This document shows positions 46-32,568 of a DNA stretch of 36,050 nucleotides, one piece after another. A model generated the notes under the pieces. That model was not told the origin of the DNA and did no database searches. It saw only the letters and a list, made by a program, of their open reading frames with translations. Position 1 is the first letter of the stretch; each line of letters begins with the position of its first letter. Position numbers and translations under genes: made by a program. The stretch covers positions 1-36,050 of the forward strand of contig CAZAEF010000002.1 of the NCBI GenBank assembly GCA_964484315.1. Reading direction: 5' to 3'. Source of the DNA: an uncultured Candidatus Saccharibacteria bacterium (GTDB lineage: Bacteria > Patescibacteriota > Minisyncoccia > Phycocordibacterales > PALSA-1337).

Positions 46-2292
46 ATGTTAATTTTCATATTTATTGTCATCGCTGTTCTTGTTTTCTACAATATTTTCA
101 AGCGTATAGATAATCTCGAGAAAAAAGTAGTCAGTCTTTCGAAAGATGGAGTGGTACCTACACATTCTGCTTCGACCTCTACAGTAACTCCTCCAGCATC
201 TCGTCTTACTCCTACAGGAACTATGGCTGAAACTAGGACAAGCACCCCACTTACTCCTCCAGTCACTTCTCGCTCTACAATTCCTCCCGTATTTTCTAGT
301 CCGAAGACTTCTCCTACACAATCACAGCACGAAGGTGGTACAGAATTTGCTGTTGGTAGTAAGTTACTCACTGGTATTGGAGTATTCGCACTCATACTCG
401 GTGTAGGATTCTTTTTCCGTTATGCTTTCGAAAATAATCTCATCAGCGAAGGTGCTCGTATTATGATCGGTATTGTATTGGGTATTATTGTGATTGCTAT
501 CGGTCATATGCTCCGTGCGAAATATGCTCAGTACGGACACACTCTCGTCGGTGCTGGTATAGGTATACTCTATCTTTCTACATATTCTGCATACAGTCTC
601 TATGGACTTATATCTACCATTCCCGCATTCATACTTCTTGTCATCATCACTGCGCTCGGAGTCGGTCTAGCTCTGGCATACAATTCGAAACCACTCGTAA
701 GTTATGCATTCCTCGGTGCATTCATTATTCCACTCCTACTTCCACTCGCTCAATCTATACATATACTCTTTCTTTATCTAATTGTCCTCAATCTCGGCGT
801 CCTTCTCATTGCTCGTTTCAAAATATGGCCAGAGTTCACTCTAGCAAGTATGATTGGTTCCAGTGTGATTTTTCTCCAATGGGTCTCTGGTCCATATACA
901 GAAGCACTCTACATACCGACATTACTCTACGGAACTCTACTTTTTATTATGTACTTCATCACTAGCTTGCTAAATTTTGTCTATAGAGACAGGAATTATA
1001 AGGGAATTGATGGATTACTTCTCTATGGAACTCCGACAGCTTATTTCCTCCTCATGTTATCTATTGTTCACGGTAAGGAAGATATAGCATTACTTTCTGC
1101 AATGATCGGTATCTTCTATATTGTCTTCTCTCTATTGATTCGCGCTGGATTCGGTGCGCTCGGCGAACTTCGTACATTCTCGAATGCTATGCTCTGTATC
1201 GCTTCGCCATTTATCGCGGCAGCTACAGCACTTCATTTCGAAGGATCAACTATCACTATCATATGGGCTATCGAGGCAGTCGTAATGATCTCTATCGGAT
1301 ATATTCTCCAAACATCTAGCAATCGTATTGCGGGACTTGTTCTCACTGTATTCACTTGTATTCGTATGTTTGCTTTCGATCTGAACCTTCCACAAGGTGC
1401 TTCAATATTCTTCAATGAGCGTTCGGCAACTCTTCTCTTCGTCACTCTAGCATGCCTTGTAATCTGGAGAATATATAATGCATATATACCAAAAATTACA
1501 GGAGTCCATCATGATGAGATTGTCGCAGGTCAAGCAGTCGGTGCCTTCGGACTATATATAGTACTCTTCACATGGCTTACTCTAGAGGTGAATGATTTCG
1601 TATCAGATTTCGGACTATACATACCTGTTGTTTGGATGATCTTCACCTCAGTGATGATGAGTGTTGGTGTGCTTGCGCGTGATAAGGTGTTTCGTGTCCT
1701 ATCATACGTACTACTTATCGTATCTATCTTTGCGGAATTTATCATGCATTACAATCTCGCTAGTTCAGAACCGATCTTCTTCAATATTCGAGTGGCGACT
1801 ATGATCGTAGCAGTCCTCACTATCGCATATATAGTATGGTTGAGTACCACTCATAAGGATGTATTCAATGATGAAGAGAGACGTTTGAATGTTACTCTCA
1901 CACTCATTGCAAACTTCATGGTCATCTGGGCACTTTCTCTAGAGATAGTCTCATACTTCCGTCTTCAGATTGAGAATGGACAAGCATTTGCTACAGTAGA
2001 AAATACGAAACGTGTCAGTCTCTCCGCATTCTGGCTCATATACGCTCTAGGTGGTCTCGCTGTTGGTATATTCCGCAAGTCTATCTCAGTGCGTTACGCT
2101 TCTATCATTCTCTTTGCAATCTCTATTTTCAAAATCTTTCTTTACGATACTGCGAACCTCAGTGATGTCTATAGATTTATCTCATTCATTACTCTCGGAG
2201 TCATTCTCCTCGTCGCTGGATTCGCTTATTACAGATTCAAATCGCGCATCCTAGAACTAGTGAGTGGGGAGCATGTAGATAATAAAGTATAG
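46..2292 (+). CDS. Large multi-pass membrane protein, DUF2339-like
   Basis: 748-aa ORF with an N-terminal TM helix, a Pro/Thr/Ser-rich linker and then many hydrophobic segments. The architecture recalls DUF2339. No catalytic motif seen. Confidence 0.6.
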   Translation: MLIFIFIVIAVLVFYNIFKRIDNLEKKVVSLSKDGVVPTHSASTSTVTPPASRLTPTGTMAETRTSTPLTPPVTSRSTIPPVFSSPKTSPTQSQHEGGTEFAVGSKLLTGIGVFALILGVGFFFRYAFENNLISEGARIMIGIVLGIIVIAIGHMLRAKYAQYGHTLVGAGIGILYLSTYSAYSLYGLISTIPAFILLVIITALGVGLALAYNSKPLVSYAFLGAFIIPLLLPLAQSIHILFLYLIVLNLGVLLIARFKIWPEFTLASMIGSSVIFLQWVSGPYTEALYIPTLLYGTLLFIMYFITSLLNFVYRDRNYKGIDGLLLYGTPTAYFLLMLSIVHGKEDIALLSAMIGIFYIVFSLLIRAGFGALGELRTFSNAMLCIASPFIAAATALHFEGSTITIIWAIEAVVMISIGYILQTSSNRIAGLVLTVFTCIRMFAFDLNLPQGASIFFNERSATLLFVTLACLVIWRIYNAYIPKITGVHHDEIVAGQAVGAFGLYIVLFTWLTLEVNDFVSDFGLYIPVVWMIFTSVMMSVGVLARDKVFRVLSYVLLIVSIFAEFIMHYNLASSEPIFFNIRVATMIVAVLTIAYIVWLSTTHKDVFNDEERRLNVTLTLIANFMVIWALSLEIVSYFRLQIENGQAFATVENTKRVSLSAFWLIYALGGLAVGIFRKSISVRYASIILFAISIFKIFLYDTANLSDVYRFISFITLGVILLVAGFAYYRFKSRILELVSGEHVDNKV

Positions 2293-6307: not shown

Positions 6308-7690
6308 ATGAATCCTTCATCTGGCCATAGAGACAGTAGCGCAGGTAGTAGCCGAGGTCCACGCAAATCTTTCTCTTCATCACATTCAACCCCAAGACCC
6401 TCATTCCGAGGTGGTTCTTCTCTTGGATCATCGAGACCATCTTTCGGGGCTTCTAAACCGACCTACGGTTCACGACCCCCATTCCGTAGTTCTGGAGGAC
6501 GACCAACATTCGGTAGTCGACCACCTATGCGTGGTGGACGAGGAGGAGGAGGCCGTGGAGGACGAGGAACTGGTCAGTATATCGATGCATCTAGATTTAT
6601 CAATAAAGCTGTCATCACAGAGAAGGTCGAGCACTTCGTGCCAGATCATGCCTTTTCAGATTTTCATATAGAAGAAAAGCTCAAGAAAAATATCATAGCA
6701 AAGGGATATGTAAACCCTACACCTATTCAAGATAAATCGATTCCTCACATTCTTCGCGGTCTCGACCTTGTTGGTATTGCGAACACCGGTACTGGTAAAA
6801 CAGCGGCATTTCTCATTCCCCTCATCAATAAAGTCCTAGCTTCACGATCTACTCCACTTCCAGAACGAATACTCATCGTCGTTCCTACTCGTGAACTTGC
6901 TCAACAGATAGAAAGTGAATTCAATGAATTTGTCCCTCATCTCAATATGTTCGCTGTATGTTGCGTCGGAGGGGCAAGTATGGGTTATCAGGTACGAGCA
7001 CTCAATAATCCTCACAGCTTCATTATTGGTACACCAGGACGTCTCCGTGATCTCATTGACCGTCGAAGTATCAATCTCGAGCGATATGCCACAGTCGTGC
7101 TTGACGAGGCAGACCGCATGCTCGACATGGGATTCATAGCTGATATCAAGTACATGGTGTCCAAGATGCCAGCGAAGAGACATACTCTCTTCTTTTCAGC
7201 GACCATGTCACCAGAAATAAAAGCTCTAATCAAGGATTTTCTCAATGAACCAGTTATGATATCGGTTAAGACAACAGAAACTTCTAGTCATGTTGATCAG
7301 GATGTCGTACGAGTGCCAGCAGGGAAGAATAAGCTAGATGTTTTGAGAGACCTTCTCAAAGGACCAGGTTTCGACAAAGTTCTCATCTTCGGTCGTACGA
7401 AGCATGGCGTAGAACGACTTGCAAAAGAATTAAAAACAATGGGATTCAAAGCAGAATCAATCCATGGCAATAAGACACAGGGTCAGCGTCAGAAGGCATT
7501 GAGTCTTTTCAAAGAAAATCATGCGAATATTCTCGTGGCGACGGACGTCGCAGCTCGTGGTCTCGATATATCTGGCGTCAGTCACGTGATCAATTTCGAA
7601 GTCCCATCAACCTATGATGACTATGTTCATCGTATTGGACGAACGGGAAGAGCTGGTAAGAAAGGAAAAGCTCTCACATTTATAGGATAG
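6308..7690 (+). CDS. DEAD-box ATP-dependent RNA helicase with N-terminal Ser/Arg/Gly/Pro-rich tail
   Basis: Q motif PTPIQ, motif I ANTGTGKT, PTRELA, DEAD, SAT, VATDVAARGLD and HRIGRTGRAG are all present. The first ~95 aa are low complexity with RGG repeats. Confidence 0.9.
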   Translation: MNPSSGHRDSSAGSSRGPRKSFSSSHSTPRPSFRGGSSLGSSRPSFGASKPTYGSRPPFRSSGGRPTFGSRPPMRGGRGGGGRGGRGTGQYIDASRFINKAVITEKVEHFVPDHAFSDFHIEEKLKKNIIAKGYVNPTPIQDKSIPHILRGLDLVGIANTGTGKTAAFLIPLINKVLASRSTPLPERILIVVPTRELAQQIESEFNEFVPHLNMFAVCCVGGASMGYQVRALNNPHSFIIGTPGRLRDLIDRRSINLERYATVVLDEADRMLDMGFIADIKYMVSKMPAKRHTLFFSATMSPEIKALIKDFLNEPVMISVKTTETSSHVDQDVVRVPAGKNKLDVLRDLLKGPGFDKVLIFGRTKHGVERLAKELKTMGFKAESIHGNKTQGQRQKALSLFKENHANILVATDVAARGLDISGVSHVINFEVPSTYDDYVHRIGRTGRAGKKGKALTFIG

Positions 7691-24303: not shown

Positions 24304-24376
24304 GGGCCCTTAGCTCATCTGGTAGAGCACCTCATTTGCAATGAGGGGGTGGCAGGTTCGAGTCCTGTAGGGTCCA
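24304..24376 (+). tRNA. tRNA-Ala (anticodon UGC)
   Basis: 73-nt cloverleaf folded by hand. Acceptor GGGCCCT/AGGGTCC with the G3:U70 Ala identity pair. D stem GCTC/GAGC. Anticodon stem CCTCA/TGAGG with loop TT-TGC-AA. T stem GCAGG/CCTGT with loop TTCGAGT. Discriminator A. CCA is not encoded. Confidence 0.92.
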
Positions 24377-29779: not shown

Positions 29780-29786
29780 AAAAAAT

Positions 29787-30515: not shown

Positions 30516-30794
30516 TCAATCTAACTTTGTGCACTTCCTCTGCCTCTCCCATTTTATACCCTCTTTGAAGACGGCTGTTAGGATGTCTGCAAAGACAAAT
30601 GCCGGTGTTTCATCAGAACCCCAATCACCTTTGAGCAGTGTGAATAGAGCCTTGTCCACCTCCACATTTTCTTTATTTGTGGGGGTCGATATGATGAGAA
30701 GAGGTTCCTTATTCCACAACGGAGATGGATTTTTGTCCGCTACAGGAACAACTAAGAAAACCCCTGACGGTTGCATATATACAGCAATGAACAT
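30516..30794 (-). CDS. Hypothetical protein
   Basis: The minus-strand ORF has AAGGA 5 nt before ATG 30794 and its own terminator. The overlapping plus-strand ORF 30472..30837 looks non-protein-like. Confidence 0.45.
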   Translation of the reverse strand: MFIAVYMQPSGVFLVVPVADKNPSPLWNKEPLLIISTPTNKENVEVDKALFTLLKGDWGSDETPAFVFADILTAVFKEGIKWERQRKCTKLD

Positions 30795-30950
30795 ATTTTC
30801 CTTTCTATTTATTTCAAAAATACACCATATCAGATAATAATGCAATCTTCTGTAAAAATCTCAGATAGGATGAGGTCTATATCTGATTAACTTATCCATA
30901 CACCATATTGCAGTATAGAAGTATATATGATACTTTGAACTAAATTGCAC

Positions 30951-31252
30951 ATCATAATGAAGCTCGAAAGAGAGTAGCGTCCGTTACTGGGAATACGCAG
31001 ACTGGCATGATACCGAATGTATCCGCCAAGACATTCTCCCTCAGCAAAGACGACAGAATGTCGTAGCCGTCTAATAGACTAGGATTCTTCAGTATCGACA
31101 AGACGATACTGTCCGAATTATGGTTGGATAAAGGTGGCAGTGCATAGTTTCCGTTGCCCTAGAGACCATAAGGCTGAATTCCCTGTCTGTGGGGTCTGGC
31201 TGAGCATAATGATTGCAATGTGACTGCCTTCTTGTAGGCAGTCATTTTTTAT
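30951..31252 (+). ncRNA. Candidate structured non-coding RNA of unknown class (~300 nt) ending in an intrinsic terminator
   Basis: No ORF of 60 aa or more in any frame across 30846-31282. Closing helix 30951-30965 / 31202-31213. Perfect 8-bp hairpins at 31030-31062 and 31090-31111, and a hairpin at 31004-31027. Terminator TGACTGCC-N8-GGCAGTCA plus T6 at 31221-31250. Confidence 0.45.
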
Positions 31253-31297
31253 TATTTCTCTATCTATGCCCCTCATCGCATATCATATTCCTTTATC

Positions 31298-31326
31298 TTG
31301 ACCCACACTCATCATCGCAGTAAAAT
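31298..31326 (+). promoter_or_regulatory. Sigma70-like promoter for the 31355 ORF
   Basis: TTGACC-N17-TAAAAT. An AAGGA RBS lies before ATG 31355. Confidence 0.5.
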
Positions 31327-31354
31327 TATATAAACAGTTCACCAAAGGAAAATT

Positions 31355-31612
31355 ATGTTCGGAATAAAATGTCATTATTGTGGGCATTGTGAGAGTGTCC
31401 ACGAACTCATGAAAAATGCCGATACTGAGATTGAAAGAAAGATAGTCTTCAATGCAAATCCTCAATATCGAACACTAATCGAAGGTTATGCTCAAACCCT
31501 CGAGCAATGTGAAGAGTATATGCCAGAGGACCGCAAGCTTGCAGAAGAGCTTGCTCGAGAGCTTTACGGCCACCACCGTACTCCACAGTTTGCTGATGAG
31601 GATTATTGTTGA
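31355..31612 (+). CDS. Hypothetical small acidic protein with N-terminal CxxCxxC
   Basis: 85 aa, begins MFGIKCHYCGHCES. Has its own promoter, RBS and terminator. Confidence 0.5.
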   Translation: MFGIKCHYCGHCESVHELMKNADTEIERKIVFNANPQYRTLIEGYAQTLEQCEEYMPEDRKLAEELARELYGHHRTPQFADEDYC

Positions 31613-31624
31613 ATCATCCAGAGG

Positions 31625-31656
31625 AAATCACTCTCATGGGTGATTTTCTTTTTTTG
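31625..31656 (+). terminator. Rho-independent terminator
   Basis: AAATCAC-N8-GTGATTT followed by a long T run. Confidence 0.65.
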
Positions 31657-31698: not shown

Positions 31699-32568
31699 AT
31701 GTATTTAATTATCCTCTATTATAAATATATCTACATCGAAAATCCCGAGGCGATTACAGCATTGCAGAGGGAACTATGCATTCGTCTTGATCTAACCGGA
31801 CGGATTATCATTGCACATGAAGGGATAAATGGGACTTTGGAAGGTACAGCGGATAATATAGAAAAATATATAAAAGAGACGAAGAAAATCAAAGAGTTCA
31901 GCGATATTAATTTTAAAAAAAGTGAAGGACAAGGTCGGTCTTTTCCGAAACTTTCAGTCAAGCTTCGCAAAGAGATAGTAACACTTGGTCGTCCTAATAT
32001 TTTCCCTATACCTAGTGAGACTGGCGCTGACTATATGAATGCAGAAGATCTCCATATGCTTCTCGAAAAAAAGAAGGACGAAGTGGTCGTTCTCGATATG
32101 AGAAATGAGTATGAATTGAAAGTAGGTAAATTCGATTCTTCTATTGCTCTTCCTGTGCAGAACTTTCGAGAGATACCTGCCCATGCGAGAGAACTAGAAA
32201 AATATAAGAATAAGACTGTGGTGGCAGTATGTACTGGTGGGGTTAGATGTGAAAAGGGTACAGCGTATCTCAAACAGGAGCTTGGTTTCGAACATATTTA
32301 TCAACTTCATGACGGTATTGTCACCTACATGACGAAATATCCCAGAGGTCATTTCAAAGGAGCTCTCTATGTTTTCGACGGACGAGTGACAATGCGTACC
32401 GATGGTATGCCTGTAGAAGTTATTGGGAAATGCGAATTGTGTGGGTCAGCATCAGAGAAATTCGTGAATTGCTCACTAGCTAAATGTCACAAGCACTTTA
32501 TCGTTTGTCTTACTTGTTTAGAAAAATCAGGTGGTGAAAAGAAAATAGTATGTGACAAAGAGCACTAA
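31699..32568 (+). CDS. trhO: Rhodanese-domain protein of the YceA/TrhO family (tRNA U34 hydroxylase)
   Basis: ILYYKYIYIENPE...GRIIIAHEGINGTLEG N-terminal UPF0176 pattern, rhodanese active-site loop CTGGVRCEK and a C-terminal Cys cluster. Confidence 0.8.
   Translation: MYLIILYYKYIYIENPEAITALQRELCIRLDLTGRIIIAHEGINGTLEGTADNIEKYIKETKKIKEFSDINFKKSEGQGRSFPKLSVKLRKEIVTLGRPNIFPIPSETGADYMNAEDLHMLLEKKKDEVVVLDMRNEYELKVGKFDSSIALPVQNFREIPAHARELEKYKNKTVVAVCTGGVRCEKGTAYLKQELGFEHIYQLHDGIVTYMTKYPRGHFKGALYVFDGRVTMRTDGMPVEVIGKCELCGSASEKFVNCSLAKCHKHFIVCLTCLEKSGGEKKIVCDKEH

What the first reader, a model, noticed from the sequence alone, without database searches (positions are those of the whole stretch)
30951..31252. 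Roughly 300-nt ORF-free, structured region ending in a strong terminator: candidate novel ncRNA
In a very compact window, 30846-31282 has no ORF of 60 aa or more in any frame. It is visibly less AT-rich than its flanks.

It contains the following structures:
- a long-range closing helix, ATCATAATG..CTC (30951-65) with GAG.CATAATGAT (31202-13)
- two perfect 8-bp hairpins, GACATTCT/AGAATGTC (31030-62) and CAGTATCG/CGATACTG (31090-111)
- GGC.GATAC-CGAAT-GTATC.GCC (31004-27)
- an intrinsic terminator, TGACTGCC-N8-GGCAGTCA-T6 (31221-50)

The downstream ORF (31355) has its own TTGACC-N17-TAAAAT promoter, so this is not simply its leader.

I could not match the region to RNase P, tmRNA, SRP, 6S, T-box or common riboswitch consensus sequences.

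The hairpin arm CGATACTG also occurs in the B-repeat loop/arm (GCGATACTGAAG). That may be chance.
Basis: seen in the sequence. Interest (0 to 1): 0.6.

Follow-up and report, generated by a model that had tools for sequence, protein, structure and literature searches.

The report
New pseudoknotted RNA gene, Patescibacteria
The flagged gap holds a real, self-contained gene for a roughly 265-base folded non-coding RNA from an uncatalogued family scattered thinly through ultra-small (CPR/Patescibacteria) bacteria; evolution has preserved its fold, but its function is unknown.

Summary
Window 30951-31213 (+), with the terminator at 31220-31250, is a stand-alone structured RNA gene. It is not a leader and not a known RNA.

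- **Rfam:** no family of Rfam 15 matches the body, even at E<=10.
- **Housekeeping RNAs:** the genome carries its RNase P RNA and tmRNA elsewhere.
- **Relatives:** I found 12 relatives in other Patescibacteria genomes, in two forms. One is a compact form like the window's. The other is a ~320-390-nt form that sits antisense between gap and pduL in one Saccharibacteria group.
- **Shared core:** all members have a closing helix P1 and a four-way junction (P3-P6) with invariant joiners AAAG, GAAUU and UCUG.
- **Pseudoknot:** the strand after P1 pairs with the loop of hairpin P6. In a 12-sequence alignment all 6 pseudoknot pairs and 4 of 6 P3 pairs show compensatory double changes. 96.7% of cells pair, against 25-52% when partners are slid.
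- **Full structure:** over 8 long-form members, 47 of 88 pairs covary.
- **Distribution:** the gene is sporadic. It was found in 0 of 44 same-genus genomes, 9 of 151 relatives of the Saccharibacteria member and 2 of 400 other genomes in a phylum sample. No protein gene travels with it. In the window it lies in a strain-specific accessory region.
- **Earlier notes:** first readers and agents of this scan flagged members of the same family on other DNA.

Most likely it acts in trans through its folded core. Its partner or chemistry is unknown.

The parts
30908..30936 (+). Possible promoter: TTGCAG (30908-13), 17-nt spacer, TG (30928-29), TACTTT (30931-36). This would start transcription a few bases before P1.
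   Evidence: Read from the sequence; inference only. The consensus scan found no site with 9 or more of 12 matches here. Seven long-form relatives and G636 have TTGAC(A/C)-N17-TAnnnT about 10-25 nt before P1; none was read before G470 or G473.
30951..30959 (+). P1, 5' strand (AUCAUAAUG); pairs with 31205-31213.
   Evidence: 8 of 9 pairs in the window. P1 is at the same place in all relatives; 9 of 13 pairs show changes on both sides in alignment A8.
30960..30988 (+). AAGC joiner, then a lineage-specific insert with small hairpins (CUC-GAAA-GAG and others).
   Evidence: AAGC follows P1 in the window, G039, G636 and four of the nine long- and short-form members, with close variants (AAGU, AAAU) in four others. 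The insert is present in the window, G039 and G636 and absent from the nine long- and short-form members.
30989..30994 (+). Conserved GGGAAU. It could pair with AUUCCC at 31178-31183 (tentative pseudoknot PKa).
   Evidence: GGAAU is kept in 10 of 12 aligned members. Only one lineage (G468: GGGGAU / AUCCCC) changes both sides, so this is not settled. It competes with P6 for two C residues.
30996..31002 (+). Pseudoknot PKb, 5' strand (CGCAGAC); pairs with the P6 loop at 31185-31191.
   Evidence: 7 of 7 pairs in the window. In A10 (12 sequences) all 6 scored pairs have changes on both sides and 95.8% of cells pair.
31003..31028 (+). P2 hairpin (UGGC-AU-GAUAC-CGAAU-GUAUC-C-GCCA); a variable arm.
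   Evidence: Read from the sequence. Every member has a hairpin of different sequence and length at this place.
31040..31045 (+). P3, 5' strand (CUCAGC); pairs with 31199-31204.
   Evidence: 6 of 6 pairs. 4 of 6 pairs covary across 12 members: CCUGGC/GCCAGG, GCCAGC/GCUGGC, CCCAGC/GCUGGG.
31046..31049 (+). Joiner J3/4, AAAG.
   Evidence: AAAG(G) is kept in 11 of 12 aligned members; G468 is the exception.
31050..31064 (+). P4, here a minimal hairpin (ACGAC-AGAAU-GUCGU).
   Evidence: Compensatory A-U to C-G change against G039. In long-form members P4 is a ~65-nt arm with a conserved internal loop UAAAUGGCA.
31065..31175 (+). P5 domain. It is closed by AGCC (31065-68) / GGCU (31172-75) and holds hairpins GUCU-AAU-AGAC (31069-79), CAGUAUCG..CGAUACUG (31090-111) and the long arm 31119-31171.
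   Evidence: Consensus fold of the window with G039: 40 pairs, 6 with double changes. The closing helix of P5 covaries in long-form members (4 of 5 pairs). The domain is almost absent in G470.
31176..31180 (+). Joiner J5/6, GAAUU. With the next C it forms the palindrome GAAUUC.
   Evidence: Kept in 11 of 12 aligned members. G468 has GGAUCC, also a palindrome.
31181..31194 (+). P6 hairpin (CCC / GGG). Its loop (31184-91) is the 3' strand of PKb.
   Evidence: 3 pairs, 100% paired in 12 members. The third pair is C-G in 10 and G-C in 2.
31195..31198 (+). Joiner J6/3, UCUG.
   Evidence: Kept in 11 of 12 aligned members.
31199..31204 (+). P3, 3' strand (GCUGAG).
   Evidence: See P3 5' strand.
31205..31213 (+). 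P1, 3' strand (CAUAAUGAU); directly abuts P3.
   Evidence: See P1 5' strand.
31220..31250 (+). Intrinsic terminator: a 10-bp stem, a 6-nt loop and a T run.
   Evidence: Terminator scan. A GC-rich hairpin plus T run follows P1 in every member except G850, whose 3' end is not resolved.

Best explanation
Window 30951-31250 (+) is an independent gene for a ~265-nt non-coding RNA of an uncatalogued family of Patescibacteria.

**Shown**
- The RNA folds with its two ends clamped in helix P1.
- P1 stacks directly on P3, which closes a four-way junction (P3, P4, P5, P6) with near-invariant joiners AAAG, GAAUU and UCUG.
- The strand that leaves P1 (GGAAUA followed by 5-7 nt) reaches back and pairs with the loop of the small hairpin P6. 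This forms a pseudoknot that locks the junction.
- P2, P4 and P5 are modular arms. They are large in some lineages and minimal or missing in others.
- The gene has its own terminator, is not tied to any neighbouring gene, and occurs sporadically.
- In this genome it lies in a strain-specific accessory region.

**Inferred**
- The RNA works in trans as a folded particle, not as a leader and not as a simple antisense RNA.
- Its pseudoknotted core acts as the functional site. This site could bind a widely conserved cellular partner or a small molecule, or it could carry out catalysis.
- Because the gene moves between lineages without any protein gene, whatever it acts on must already be present in the recipient cell.

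Which of these it does is not known.
For: **No catalogued family.** Nothing at gathering thresholds in the whole window except a tRNA. Nothing on the RNA body at E<=10. Nothing at E<=1 on eight relatives.

**Homologues.**
- G039, 72% identical over the core.
- A Saccharibacteria MAG, L096/G435.
- Eight further genomes near G435.
- G636 and G850 from a phylum-wide sample.

**Covariation.**
- Window with G039: 40 pairs, 6 with double changes.
- Eight long-form members: 92.6% of cells paired against 30-45% when partners are slid. 47 of 88 pairs have changes on both sides. The covariation score is 0.446 against 0.250 in shuffles (0 of 500 reach it).
- Twelve members including the window, for P3, P6 and the pseudoknot: 96.7% paired against 25-52% slid, and 11 of 15 pairs have double changes.

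**Stand-alone gene.**
- Terminator directly after P1 in the window and in every relative except G850.
- The neighbours differ between loci: histidine phosphatase, unknown ORF, CxxC protein and TrhO here; sigma factor and uvrA in G039; gap and pduL in eight loci; MscL and a KH protein in G636; SecDF and RecJ in G850.
- In the gap/pduL loci the RNA is antisense to both genes. A relative without it has the two genes about 110 nt apart.

**Sporadic and accessory.**
- 0 of 44 same-genus genomes with the covariance model.
- 2 of 401 in the order by BLAST, counting the window's own genome.
- 9 of 151 relatives of G435.
- 2 of 400 other genomes in a phylum sample.
- The neighbouring trhO is also missing from five complete same-genus genomes.

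**Strand.** The terminator lies on +, the MFE z-score is better on +, and many G-U pairs would be A-C on the other strand.
Against: - No expression data: no RNA run holds the stretch.
- No promoter in the window passes the consensus scan.
- The family is small: 13 members found. Several are close kin, so the counts of compensatory changes include inherited events.
- The function is wholly inferred. No partner, ligand or activity is indicated by context.
- The second pseudoknot (GGAAU/AUUCC) competes with P6 and rests on one lineage.
- The window-specific 8-bp hairpin 31030-62 conflicts with the conserved fold, and the MFE prediction for the single sequence prefers it.
Confidence: 0.78

Rival explanations
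1. It is a cis-acting leader or riboswitch that controls the downstream 85-aa CxxC gene (31355) by termination at 31220-31250.
For: The aptamer-like fold is closed by P1 and followed at once by a terminator, as in many OFF switches. The gene downstream is on the same strand.
Against: - The downstream ORF has its own promoter, 10 of 12 matches.
- That ORF has no homologue in five RNA-bearing genomes.
- Downstream genes differ in every lineage, and the next gene is convergent (gap) in eight loci.
- No riboswitch family matches.
Confidence: 0.03
2. It is a highly divergent copy of a universal RNA: RNase P RNA, tmRNA, SRP RNA or 6S RNA.
For: It has a closing helix plus a long-range pseudoknot, as in RNase P. 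No SRP RNA was detected anywhere in this 100%-complete genome, and only a weak 6S candidate was found.
Against: - RNase P RNA (112.7 bits) and tmRNA (100.5 bits) are found elsewhere in the genome.
- No Rfam model touches the body at E<=10.
- The RNA is missing from all 44 same-genus genomes and from most relatives. A universal RNA could not be.
- The arm that would have to carry an SRP helix-8-like site is not conserved between the forms.
Confidence: 0.03
3. It is the RNA component of a mobile or defence element: an IscB/TnpB omega RNA, an IS110 bridge RNA, a retron msr-msd or a reverse-transcriptase-associated ncRNA. In these loci its protein gene lies elsewhere or has been lost.
For: - Distribution is sporadic and points to horizontal transfer.
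- In the window it lies in a region that earlier notes describe as an integrase-made cassette island.
- The ends are closed by a stem, as in retron ncRNAs.
Against: - None of the 13 loci has a transposase, recombinase, reverse transcriptase or nuclease gene next to the RNA.
- P1 clamps both ends and the terminator follows directly, so no free guide segment is left.
- Neither HEARO nor any other such Rfam family matches.
- The island's repeats do not flank the RNA; the last copy ends at 29783.
- Eight members sit at one conserved chromosomal spot.
Confidence: 0.06
4. It is not a gene: a decayed coding remnant or chance structure in an intergenic spacer.
For: It has been found in only 13 genomes, and there are no expression data.
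Against: - Long invariant blocks are shared across different families and classes, alongside compensatory helix changes.
- Indels are not multiples of three.
- The folding z-score is -4.27.
- A terminator is kept in every member but G850, and promoters in most relatives.
Confidence: 0.01

Closest known systems
Orphan large structured bacterial ncRNAs found by comparative genomics: raiA motif RNA, and the OLE, ROOL and GOLLD RNAs (PMC5737381, PMC10861870, PMC12968392, PMC12286853)
   Same: - Stand-alone gene with its own terminator.
- 200-400 nt, with multi-stem junctions locked by pseudoknots.
- Invariant junction nucleotides and variable peripheral arms.
- No tie to a neighbouring gene, and function not evident from sequence.
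- A conserved palindrome (GAAUUC) could in principle mediate self-pairing, as kissing contacts do in the RNA-only assemblies solved by cryo-EM (PMC12286853).
   Different: - No sequence or structure match to any of these families in Rfam 15.
- Different phylum: Patescibacteria, against Bacillota, Actinomycetota or phages.
- Smaller than OLE, ROOL and GOLLD.
- Much rarer than raiA, which is reported from over 2700 species (PMC12968392).
- Self-assembly is untested here.
Bacterial RNase P RNA, type A (Rfam RF00010)
   Same: The ends are closed by P1. A single strand just after the first helices forms a long-range pseudoknot with a 3' segment, comparable to P4. Peripheral arms are modular, and the size class is similar.
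   Different: - None of the universal RNase P sequence blocks is present, and the model does not score here.
- The genome has a bona fide RNase P RNA on another contig.
- This RNA is absent from most relatives.
Junction-plus-pseudoknot riboswitch aptamers such as the cobalamin riboswitch (from my own knowledge of the class)
   Same: A four-way junction core with conserved joiners, a loop-to-strand tertiary pairing, a variable peripheral extension, and a terminator right after the closing helix.
   Different: - No Rfam riboswitch model matches.
- There is no common downstream gene, and the downstream gene is convergent in eight loci.
- It therefore cannot work as a 5' leader.

Membership tests
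RNase P RNA (RF00010) | Match to the covariance model, including the conserved P4 sequence blocks | tested here: not met
   No hit on 30750-31400 at E<=10. The model scores 112.7 bits on another contig of the same genome.
RNase P RNA (RF00010) | Universal presence, one per genome | tested here: not met
   The RNA is absent from 44 of 44 same-genus genomes and from 142 of 151 relatives of G435.
tmRNA (RF00023) | Match to the model: tRNA-like ends and a tag reading frame | tested here: not met
   No hit in the region. tmRNA is found at contig 3, 100.5 bits.
SRP RNA (RF00169, RF01854) | Conserved helix 8 (domain IV) motif; match to the model | tested here: not met
   No hit in the region or anywhere in the genome. 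The candidate arm is not conserved between the forms of the family, and the RNA is not universal.
6S RNA (RF00013) | Long rod with a central bubble; match to the model | tested here: not met
   No hit in the region. The fold is a branched junction with a pseudoknot. The weak 6S candidate lies on contig 16.
raiA, OLE, ROOL, GOLLD, HEARO and all other Rfam 15 families | Match to the family covariance model | tested here: not met
   cmscan against 4227 families gave nothing on the RNA body at E<=10 in the window and nothing at E<=1 in eight relatives.
Cis-regulatory leader or riboswitch | Lies upstream of, and on the same strand as, a recurring class of regulated genes | tested here: not met
   Downstream genes differ in every lineage and are convergent in eight loci.
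Guide or bridge RNAs and retron ncRNAs of mobile or defence elements | Adjacent gene for the partner protein (IscB/TnpB, IS110 recombinase, reverse transcriptase) | tested here: not met
   No such gene lies beside any of the 13 loci examined.
Stand-alone structured ncRNA (new family) | Conserved secondary structure supported by compensatory changes | tested here: met
   47 of 88 pairs and 11 of 15 core pairs have double changes. Paired cells are 92.6-96.7%, against 25-52% in slid controls.
Stand-alone structured ncRNA (new family) | Own transcription unit (promoter and terminator) | tested here: inconclusive
   The terminator is confirmed. Near-consensus promoters are present in most relatives. 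In the window there is only a weak extended -10 candidate. No RNA-seq data exist.

The most novel reading that the evidence does not exclude
This is a new class of RNA-only machine: a ribozyme, or a self-assembling 'ornate' RNA that dimerises through its invariant palindrome (GAAUUC, which becomes GGAUCC in one lineage). It spreads horizontally among CPR bacteria as a naked RNA gene cassette, without any protein gene, and confers an accessory function on its own.
Probability: 0.15. Interest if true: 0.85.

Novelty: categorically new. Interest (0 to 1): 0.66.

Why it matters
New classes of large, intricately folded bacterial RNAs are rare. Those already understood (RNase P, riboswitches, tmRNA, 6S) each revealed a new piece of biochemistry.

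This one has a compact pseudoknotted junction with near-invariant joiner nucleotides, which is the signature of a binding pocket or an active site. It comes from the least-studied major bacterial lineage.

It also behaves as an accessory gene that moves without a protein partner, which is unusual for a structured RNA.

The short natural forms (about 177 nt in G470 and about 265 nt here) define a minimal core. That core is directly suitable for structure probing, cryo-EM, ligand screens and self-cleavage or assembly assays.

Tried and rejected
**Rfam and pattern scans**
- Rfam scans at gathering and permissive thresholds gave only junk hits on the terminator.
- My first scan of genome contigs used a spacer one base too long and found nothing.
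- The second genome-contig scan gave 27 hits, of which one (L096) was real.
- Those two patterns were too strict for most family members, so the family is probably larger than the genome-wide scan suggests.
- The metagenome scan returned only the G039 organism again.
- Four viral-contig scans gave no member.

**Models and alignments**
- Covariance model R1 (window plus G039 core) scores only 13 bits on the long form, because of a ~90-nt insert.
- MAFFT misaligned the two forms until the intermediate member G636 was added.
- Five weak R2 hits (20-23 bits) lie in coding sequence and are noise.

**Expression and reads**
- No RNA holder is listed for the stretch.
- Laying reads from three DNA runs showed only near-identical strains.

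**Protein partners**
- The two flanking small ORFs have no homologue in five RNA-bearing genomes, so no partner was found by adjacency.

**Ideas rejected**
- SRP RNA was considered because the genome shows no SRP RNA hit. I rejected it because the RNA is absent from the whole genus.
- The 8-mer shared with the B repeat is treated as chance.
- A look-up of the short form G470 against earlier notes found nothing, so the 'dimer-prone' family of note e1-3945495 is not shown to be this one.

I stopped that step.
- The same question was answered with the counting tool on alignment A10, and with a script that used column numbers only.

**Not attempted**
- I did not build a single model of the whole RNA, because models over about 190 positions are not calibrated here.

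Full report
**1. The observation**

The window between 30846 and 31282 has no ORF above 52 aa in any frame. It is somewhat richer in G+C (0.42-0.48) than its immediate flanks (0.33-0.36).

The + strand of 30940-31255 folds at -105.9 kcal/mol, with z = -4.27 against 100 dinucleotide shuffles. The - strand gives z = -3.05.

The terminator at 31220-31245 plus a T run is found by the consensus scan. So is the separate promoter of the downstream ORF (TTGACC-N17-TAAAAT, 31298-31326).

Which of them matter is decided by comparison with relatives, below.

**2. Not a catalogued RNA**

- cmscan of the whole window against Rfam 15 finds only a tRNA at 24304.
- With permissive filters and E<=10, the only hits in 30750-31400 are spurious matches to the terminator and its tail.
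- The genome is 643 kb in 45 contigs and is rated 100% complete. It has RNase P RNA on contig 5 (112.7 bits) and tmRNA on contig 3 (100.5 bits).
- 6S gives only a weak candidate elsewhere.
- No SRP RNA model scores anywhere in the genome. I note this in passing.

**3. Relatives**

- BLAST of the region against 60 relatives, and then against 400 genomes of the same order, found one homologue. This is G039, in another family, 72% identical over the core. It lies between a sigma-factor gene and uvrA.
- A covariance model of the shared core (R1) found no copy in any of the 44 other species of the window's genus.
- A pattern scan of 185,579 species genomes found one more member, a Candidatus Saccharibacteria MAG (L096 = G435).
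- BLAST, and then a covariance model of the 5' half (R2), over 100 and 150 relatives of G435 found eight more, at 84-126 bits. Five weak hits were noise.
- A looser pattern over a 400-genome sample of the phylum found two more, in other classes: G636 and G850. The reversed control pattern gave none.
- Viral contigs gave nothing.
- First readers and agents of this scan had already flagged the G039 locus and three other members on other DNA as unexplained structured RNAs. I treated those notes as leads only.

**4. Architecture**

Reading the thirteen sequences side by side gives one plan.

- **P1** clamps the two ends (window 30951-59 with 31205-13).
- **The strand leaving P1** begins AAGC (or a close variant) in 11 of 12 members. 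It carries GGAAUA (window 30989-95) and then 5-7 nt (CGCAGAC, 30996-31002). A variable hairpin, P2 (31003-28), follows.
- **P3** (CUCAGC 31040-45 with GCUGAG 31199-204) closes a four-way junction and abuts P1 on its 3' side.
- **The joiners** of the junction are AAAG(G), a single nucleotide or none, GAAUU, and UCUG.
- **P4** is a 15-nt hairpin in the window (31050-64). In the Saccharibacteria group it is a ~65-nt arm with a conserved internal loop, UAAAUGGCA.
- **P5** (AGCC 31065-68 with GGCU 31172-75) encloses about 100 nt here and about 200 nt in the long form. In G470, whose whole RNA is 177 nt, it encloses almost nothing.
- **P6** is a three-pair hairpin (CCC/GGG, 31181-94).
- **The pseudoknot (PKb)** is formed by the P6 loop pairing with the 5-7 nt after GGAAUA. 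In the window this is CGCAGAC with GUCUGUG (31185-91), 7 of 7 pairs.

**5. Covariation**

*Window with G039.* 40 predicted pairs, 6 with changes on both sides.

*Eight full-length long-form members (alignment A8).* I used a structure that I wrote down from the RNAalifold proposal plus P3, P6 and the pseudoknot.
- 92.6% of 680 cells form standard pairs. This falls to 30-45% when the 3' partners are slid by 1-3 columns.
- 47 of 88 pairs have changes on both sides.
- The covariation score is 0.446, against 0.250 +/- 0.014 in shuffles (0 of 500 reach it) and about 0.1 in slid controls.

*Twelve members including the window (alignment A10), for P3, P6 and the pseudoknot.*
- 96.7% of cells are paired, against 25-52% when slid.
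- 11 of 15 pairs have double changes.
- All six pseudoknot pairs and four of six P3 pairs covary.

*Caveat.* The members are related, so the counts include inherited changes. However, the window type, the long form, G470 and G636 each contribute different pair types.

*A second possible pairing (PKa).* GGAAU with AUUCC overlaps P6. It is invariant except in G468, where both sides change (GGGGAU / AUCCCC). In that lineage the same changes also lengthen P6 and keep the GAAUUC palindrome palindromic (GGAUCC). The three readings cannot be separated with these data.

**6. A stand-alone gene, not a leader**

- A GC-rich hairpin with a T run follows P1 in every member except G850, whose 3' end I could not resolve.
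- Seven long-form members and G636 have TTGAC(A/C)-N17-TAnnnT about 10-25 nt before P1. I read none before G470 or G473.
- In the window I see only a weak candidate: TTGCAG-N17-TACTTT preceded by TG, at 30908-36. This is inference, and it was not found by the scan.
- The neighbours differ between loci:
  - Window: histidine phosphatase, an unknown 91-aa ORF on the other strand, an 85-aa CxxC protein and TrhO.
  - G039: a sigma factor and uvrA.
  - G636: MscL and a KH protein.
  - G850: SecDF and RecJ.
  - G470: a permease and an aminotransferase-like gene.
- In eight Saccharibacteria genomes the RNA lies antisense between gap and pduL, converging on gap. In a relative without the RNA, gap and pduL are about 110 nt apart. 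The RNA gene is therefore a discrete ~400-bp presence/absence unit.
- The two small ORFs that flank the RNA in the window have no homologue in five RNA-bearing genomes.

**7. Distribution and the window's context**

- The gene is rare and patchy:
  - 0 of 44 in the genus;
  - 2 of 401 in the order, counting the window's own genome;
  - 9 of 151 around G435;
  - 2 of 400 other genomes across the phylum.
- Even so, the window's copy and G039's, from different families, keep 17-18-nt identical blocks.
- trhO next door is also missing from five complete same-genus genomes.
- Earlier notes describe the region upstream as an integrase-built cassette island at tRNA-Ala. The island's repeats do not flank the RNA.
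- I infer that the copy in this genome was acquired horizontally, as an RNA gene on its own.

**8. How it probably works**

*Shown.* The fold, its conservation, the independence from neighbouring genes, and the sporadic distribution.

*Inferred.*
- The near-invariant unpaired nucleotides all sit at the junction and in the pseudoknot, while helices and arms vary freely. So the functional site is the folded core. The RNA therefore acts in trans as a structured particle that binds a partner or a small molecule, or that is catalytic.
- It travels without a protein gene, so its target must be something every recipient already has.
- I put about 0.8 on 'real stand-alone structured RNA of a new family acting through its fold'. 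I put much less on any particular activity.

*Rivals.* A leader or riboswitch, a divergent housekeeping RNA, a mobile-element guide RNA, and a non-gene each fail a direct test (sections 2, 3, 6).

**9. Comparison with known RNAs**

- It works most like the orphan structured RNAs of the raiA, OLE, ROOL and GOLLD kind (PMC5737381, PMC10861870, PMC12968392, PMC12286853). It is a member of none of them.
- It shares with RNase P the P1 clamp and a strand-to-distal-segment pseudoknot. It fails the RNase P model, and the genome has a true RNase P RNA.
- The palindromic joiner invites a test for self-assembly of the kind seen for OLE, ROOL and GOLLD. That is a lead, not a finding.

**10. Limits**

- There are no expression data.
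- Only thirteen members are known, partly because my two genome-wide patterns were too strict.
- I could not build a single model of the whole RNA.
I replaced it with counts on alignment A10.

Noticed in passing
whole genome G000 (not in the window): Neither the small nor the large bacterial SRP RNA model scores anywhere in this genome at E<=1, although the genome is rated 100% complete. The same search rings in most control genomes. The SRP RNA is either very divergent or unassembled.
   Followed up: partly
window 31699-32568: The TrhO-like gene (UPF0176 N domain, rhodanese and rhodanese C domains) next to the RNA was not found in five complete genomes of the same genus. The strain-specific region therefore extends beyond the limit at trhO proposed earlier.
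   Followed up: partly
window 31355-31612: The 85-aa protein starts with a CHYCGHC motif. It has a sub-threshold thioredoxin-like match (17.3 bits, cut-off 23.5), its own promoter and its own terminator (31620-31651). No homologue was found in five RNA-bearing genomes.
   Followed up: partly
window 31030-31062: A perfect 8-bp hairpin (GACAUUCU/AGAAUGUC) is specific to this copy and mutually exclusive with the conserved P3 and P4. It could be chance or an alternative, inactive fold.
   Followed up: partly
L118 (G468), about 1254-1582, minus strand: This is a variant member. It lacks the AAAG joiner, has GGAUCC in place of GAAUUC and AUCA in place of UCUG, and has GGGGAU in place of GGAAU. The co-ordinated changes lengthen P6, keep a palindrome and keep the possible PKa pairing.
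   Followed up: partly
L154 (G439) compared with L096 (G435): gap and pduL (followed by an acetate-kinase-like gene) are adjacent on one strand, about 110 nt apart, in a relative without the RNA. The RNA gene occupies a ~480-nt spacer on the opposite strand where it is present.
   Followed up: yes
L156 (G438), last ~150 bases, downstream of gap: A ~68-nt unit (beginning AAGAACCTAACTCGC) occurs twice in tandem at the end of the contig. It may be a repeat or an assembly artefact.
   Followed up: no
long-form members, e.g. L096 about 7060-7160, minus strand: The P5 arm of the long form carries invariant GGAGUA opposite GAAGA around a covarying helix. This has the look of a loop E / sarcin-ricin (bulged-G) motif. 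It is not present in the window's compact P5.
   Followed up: no
window 30516-30845, minus strand: A 91-109-aa ORF divergent from the RNA gene has no Pfam match and no homologue in five RNA-bearing genomes. The overlapping 121-aa ORF on the + strand looks spurious (serine-rich, low complexity).
   Followed up: partly
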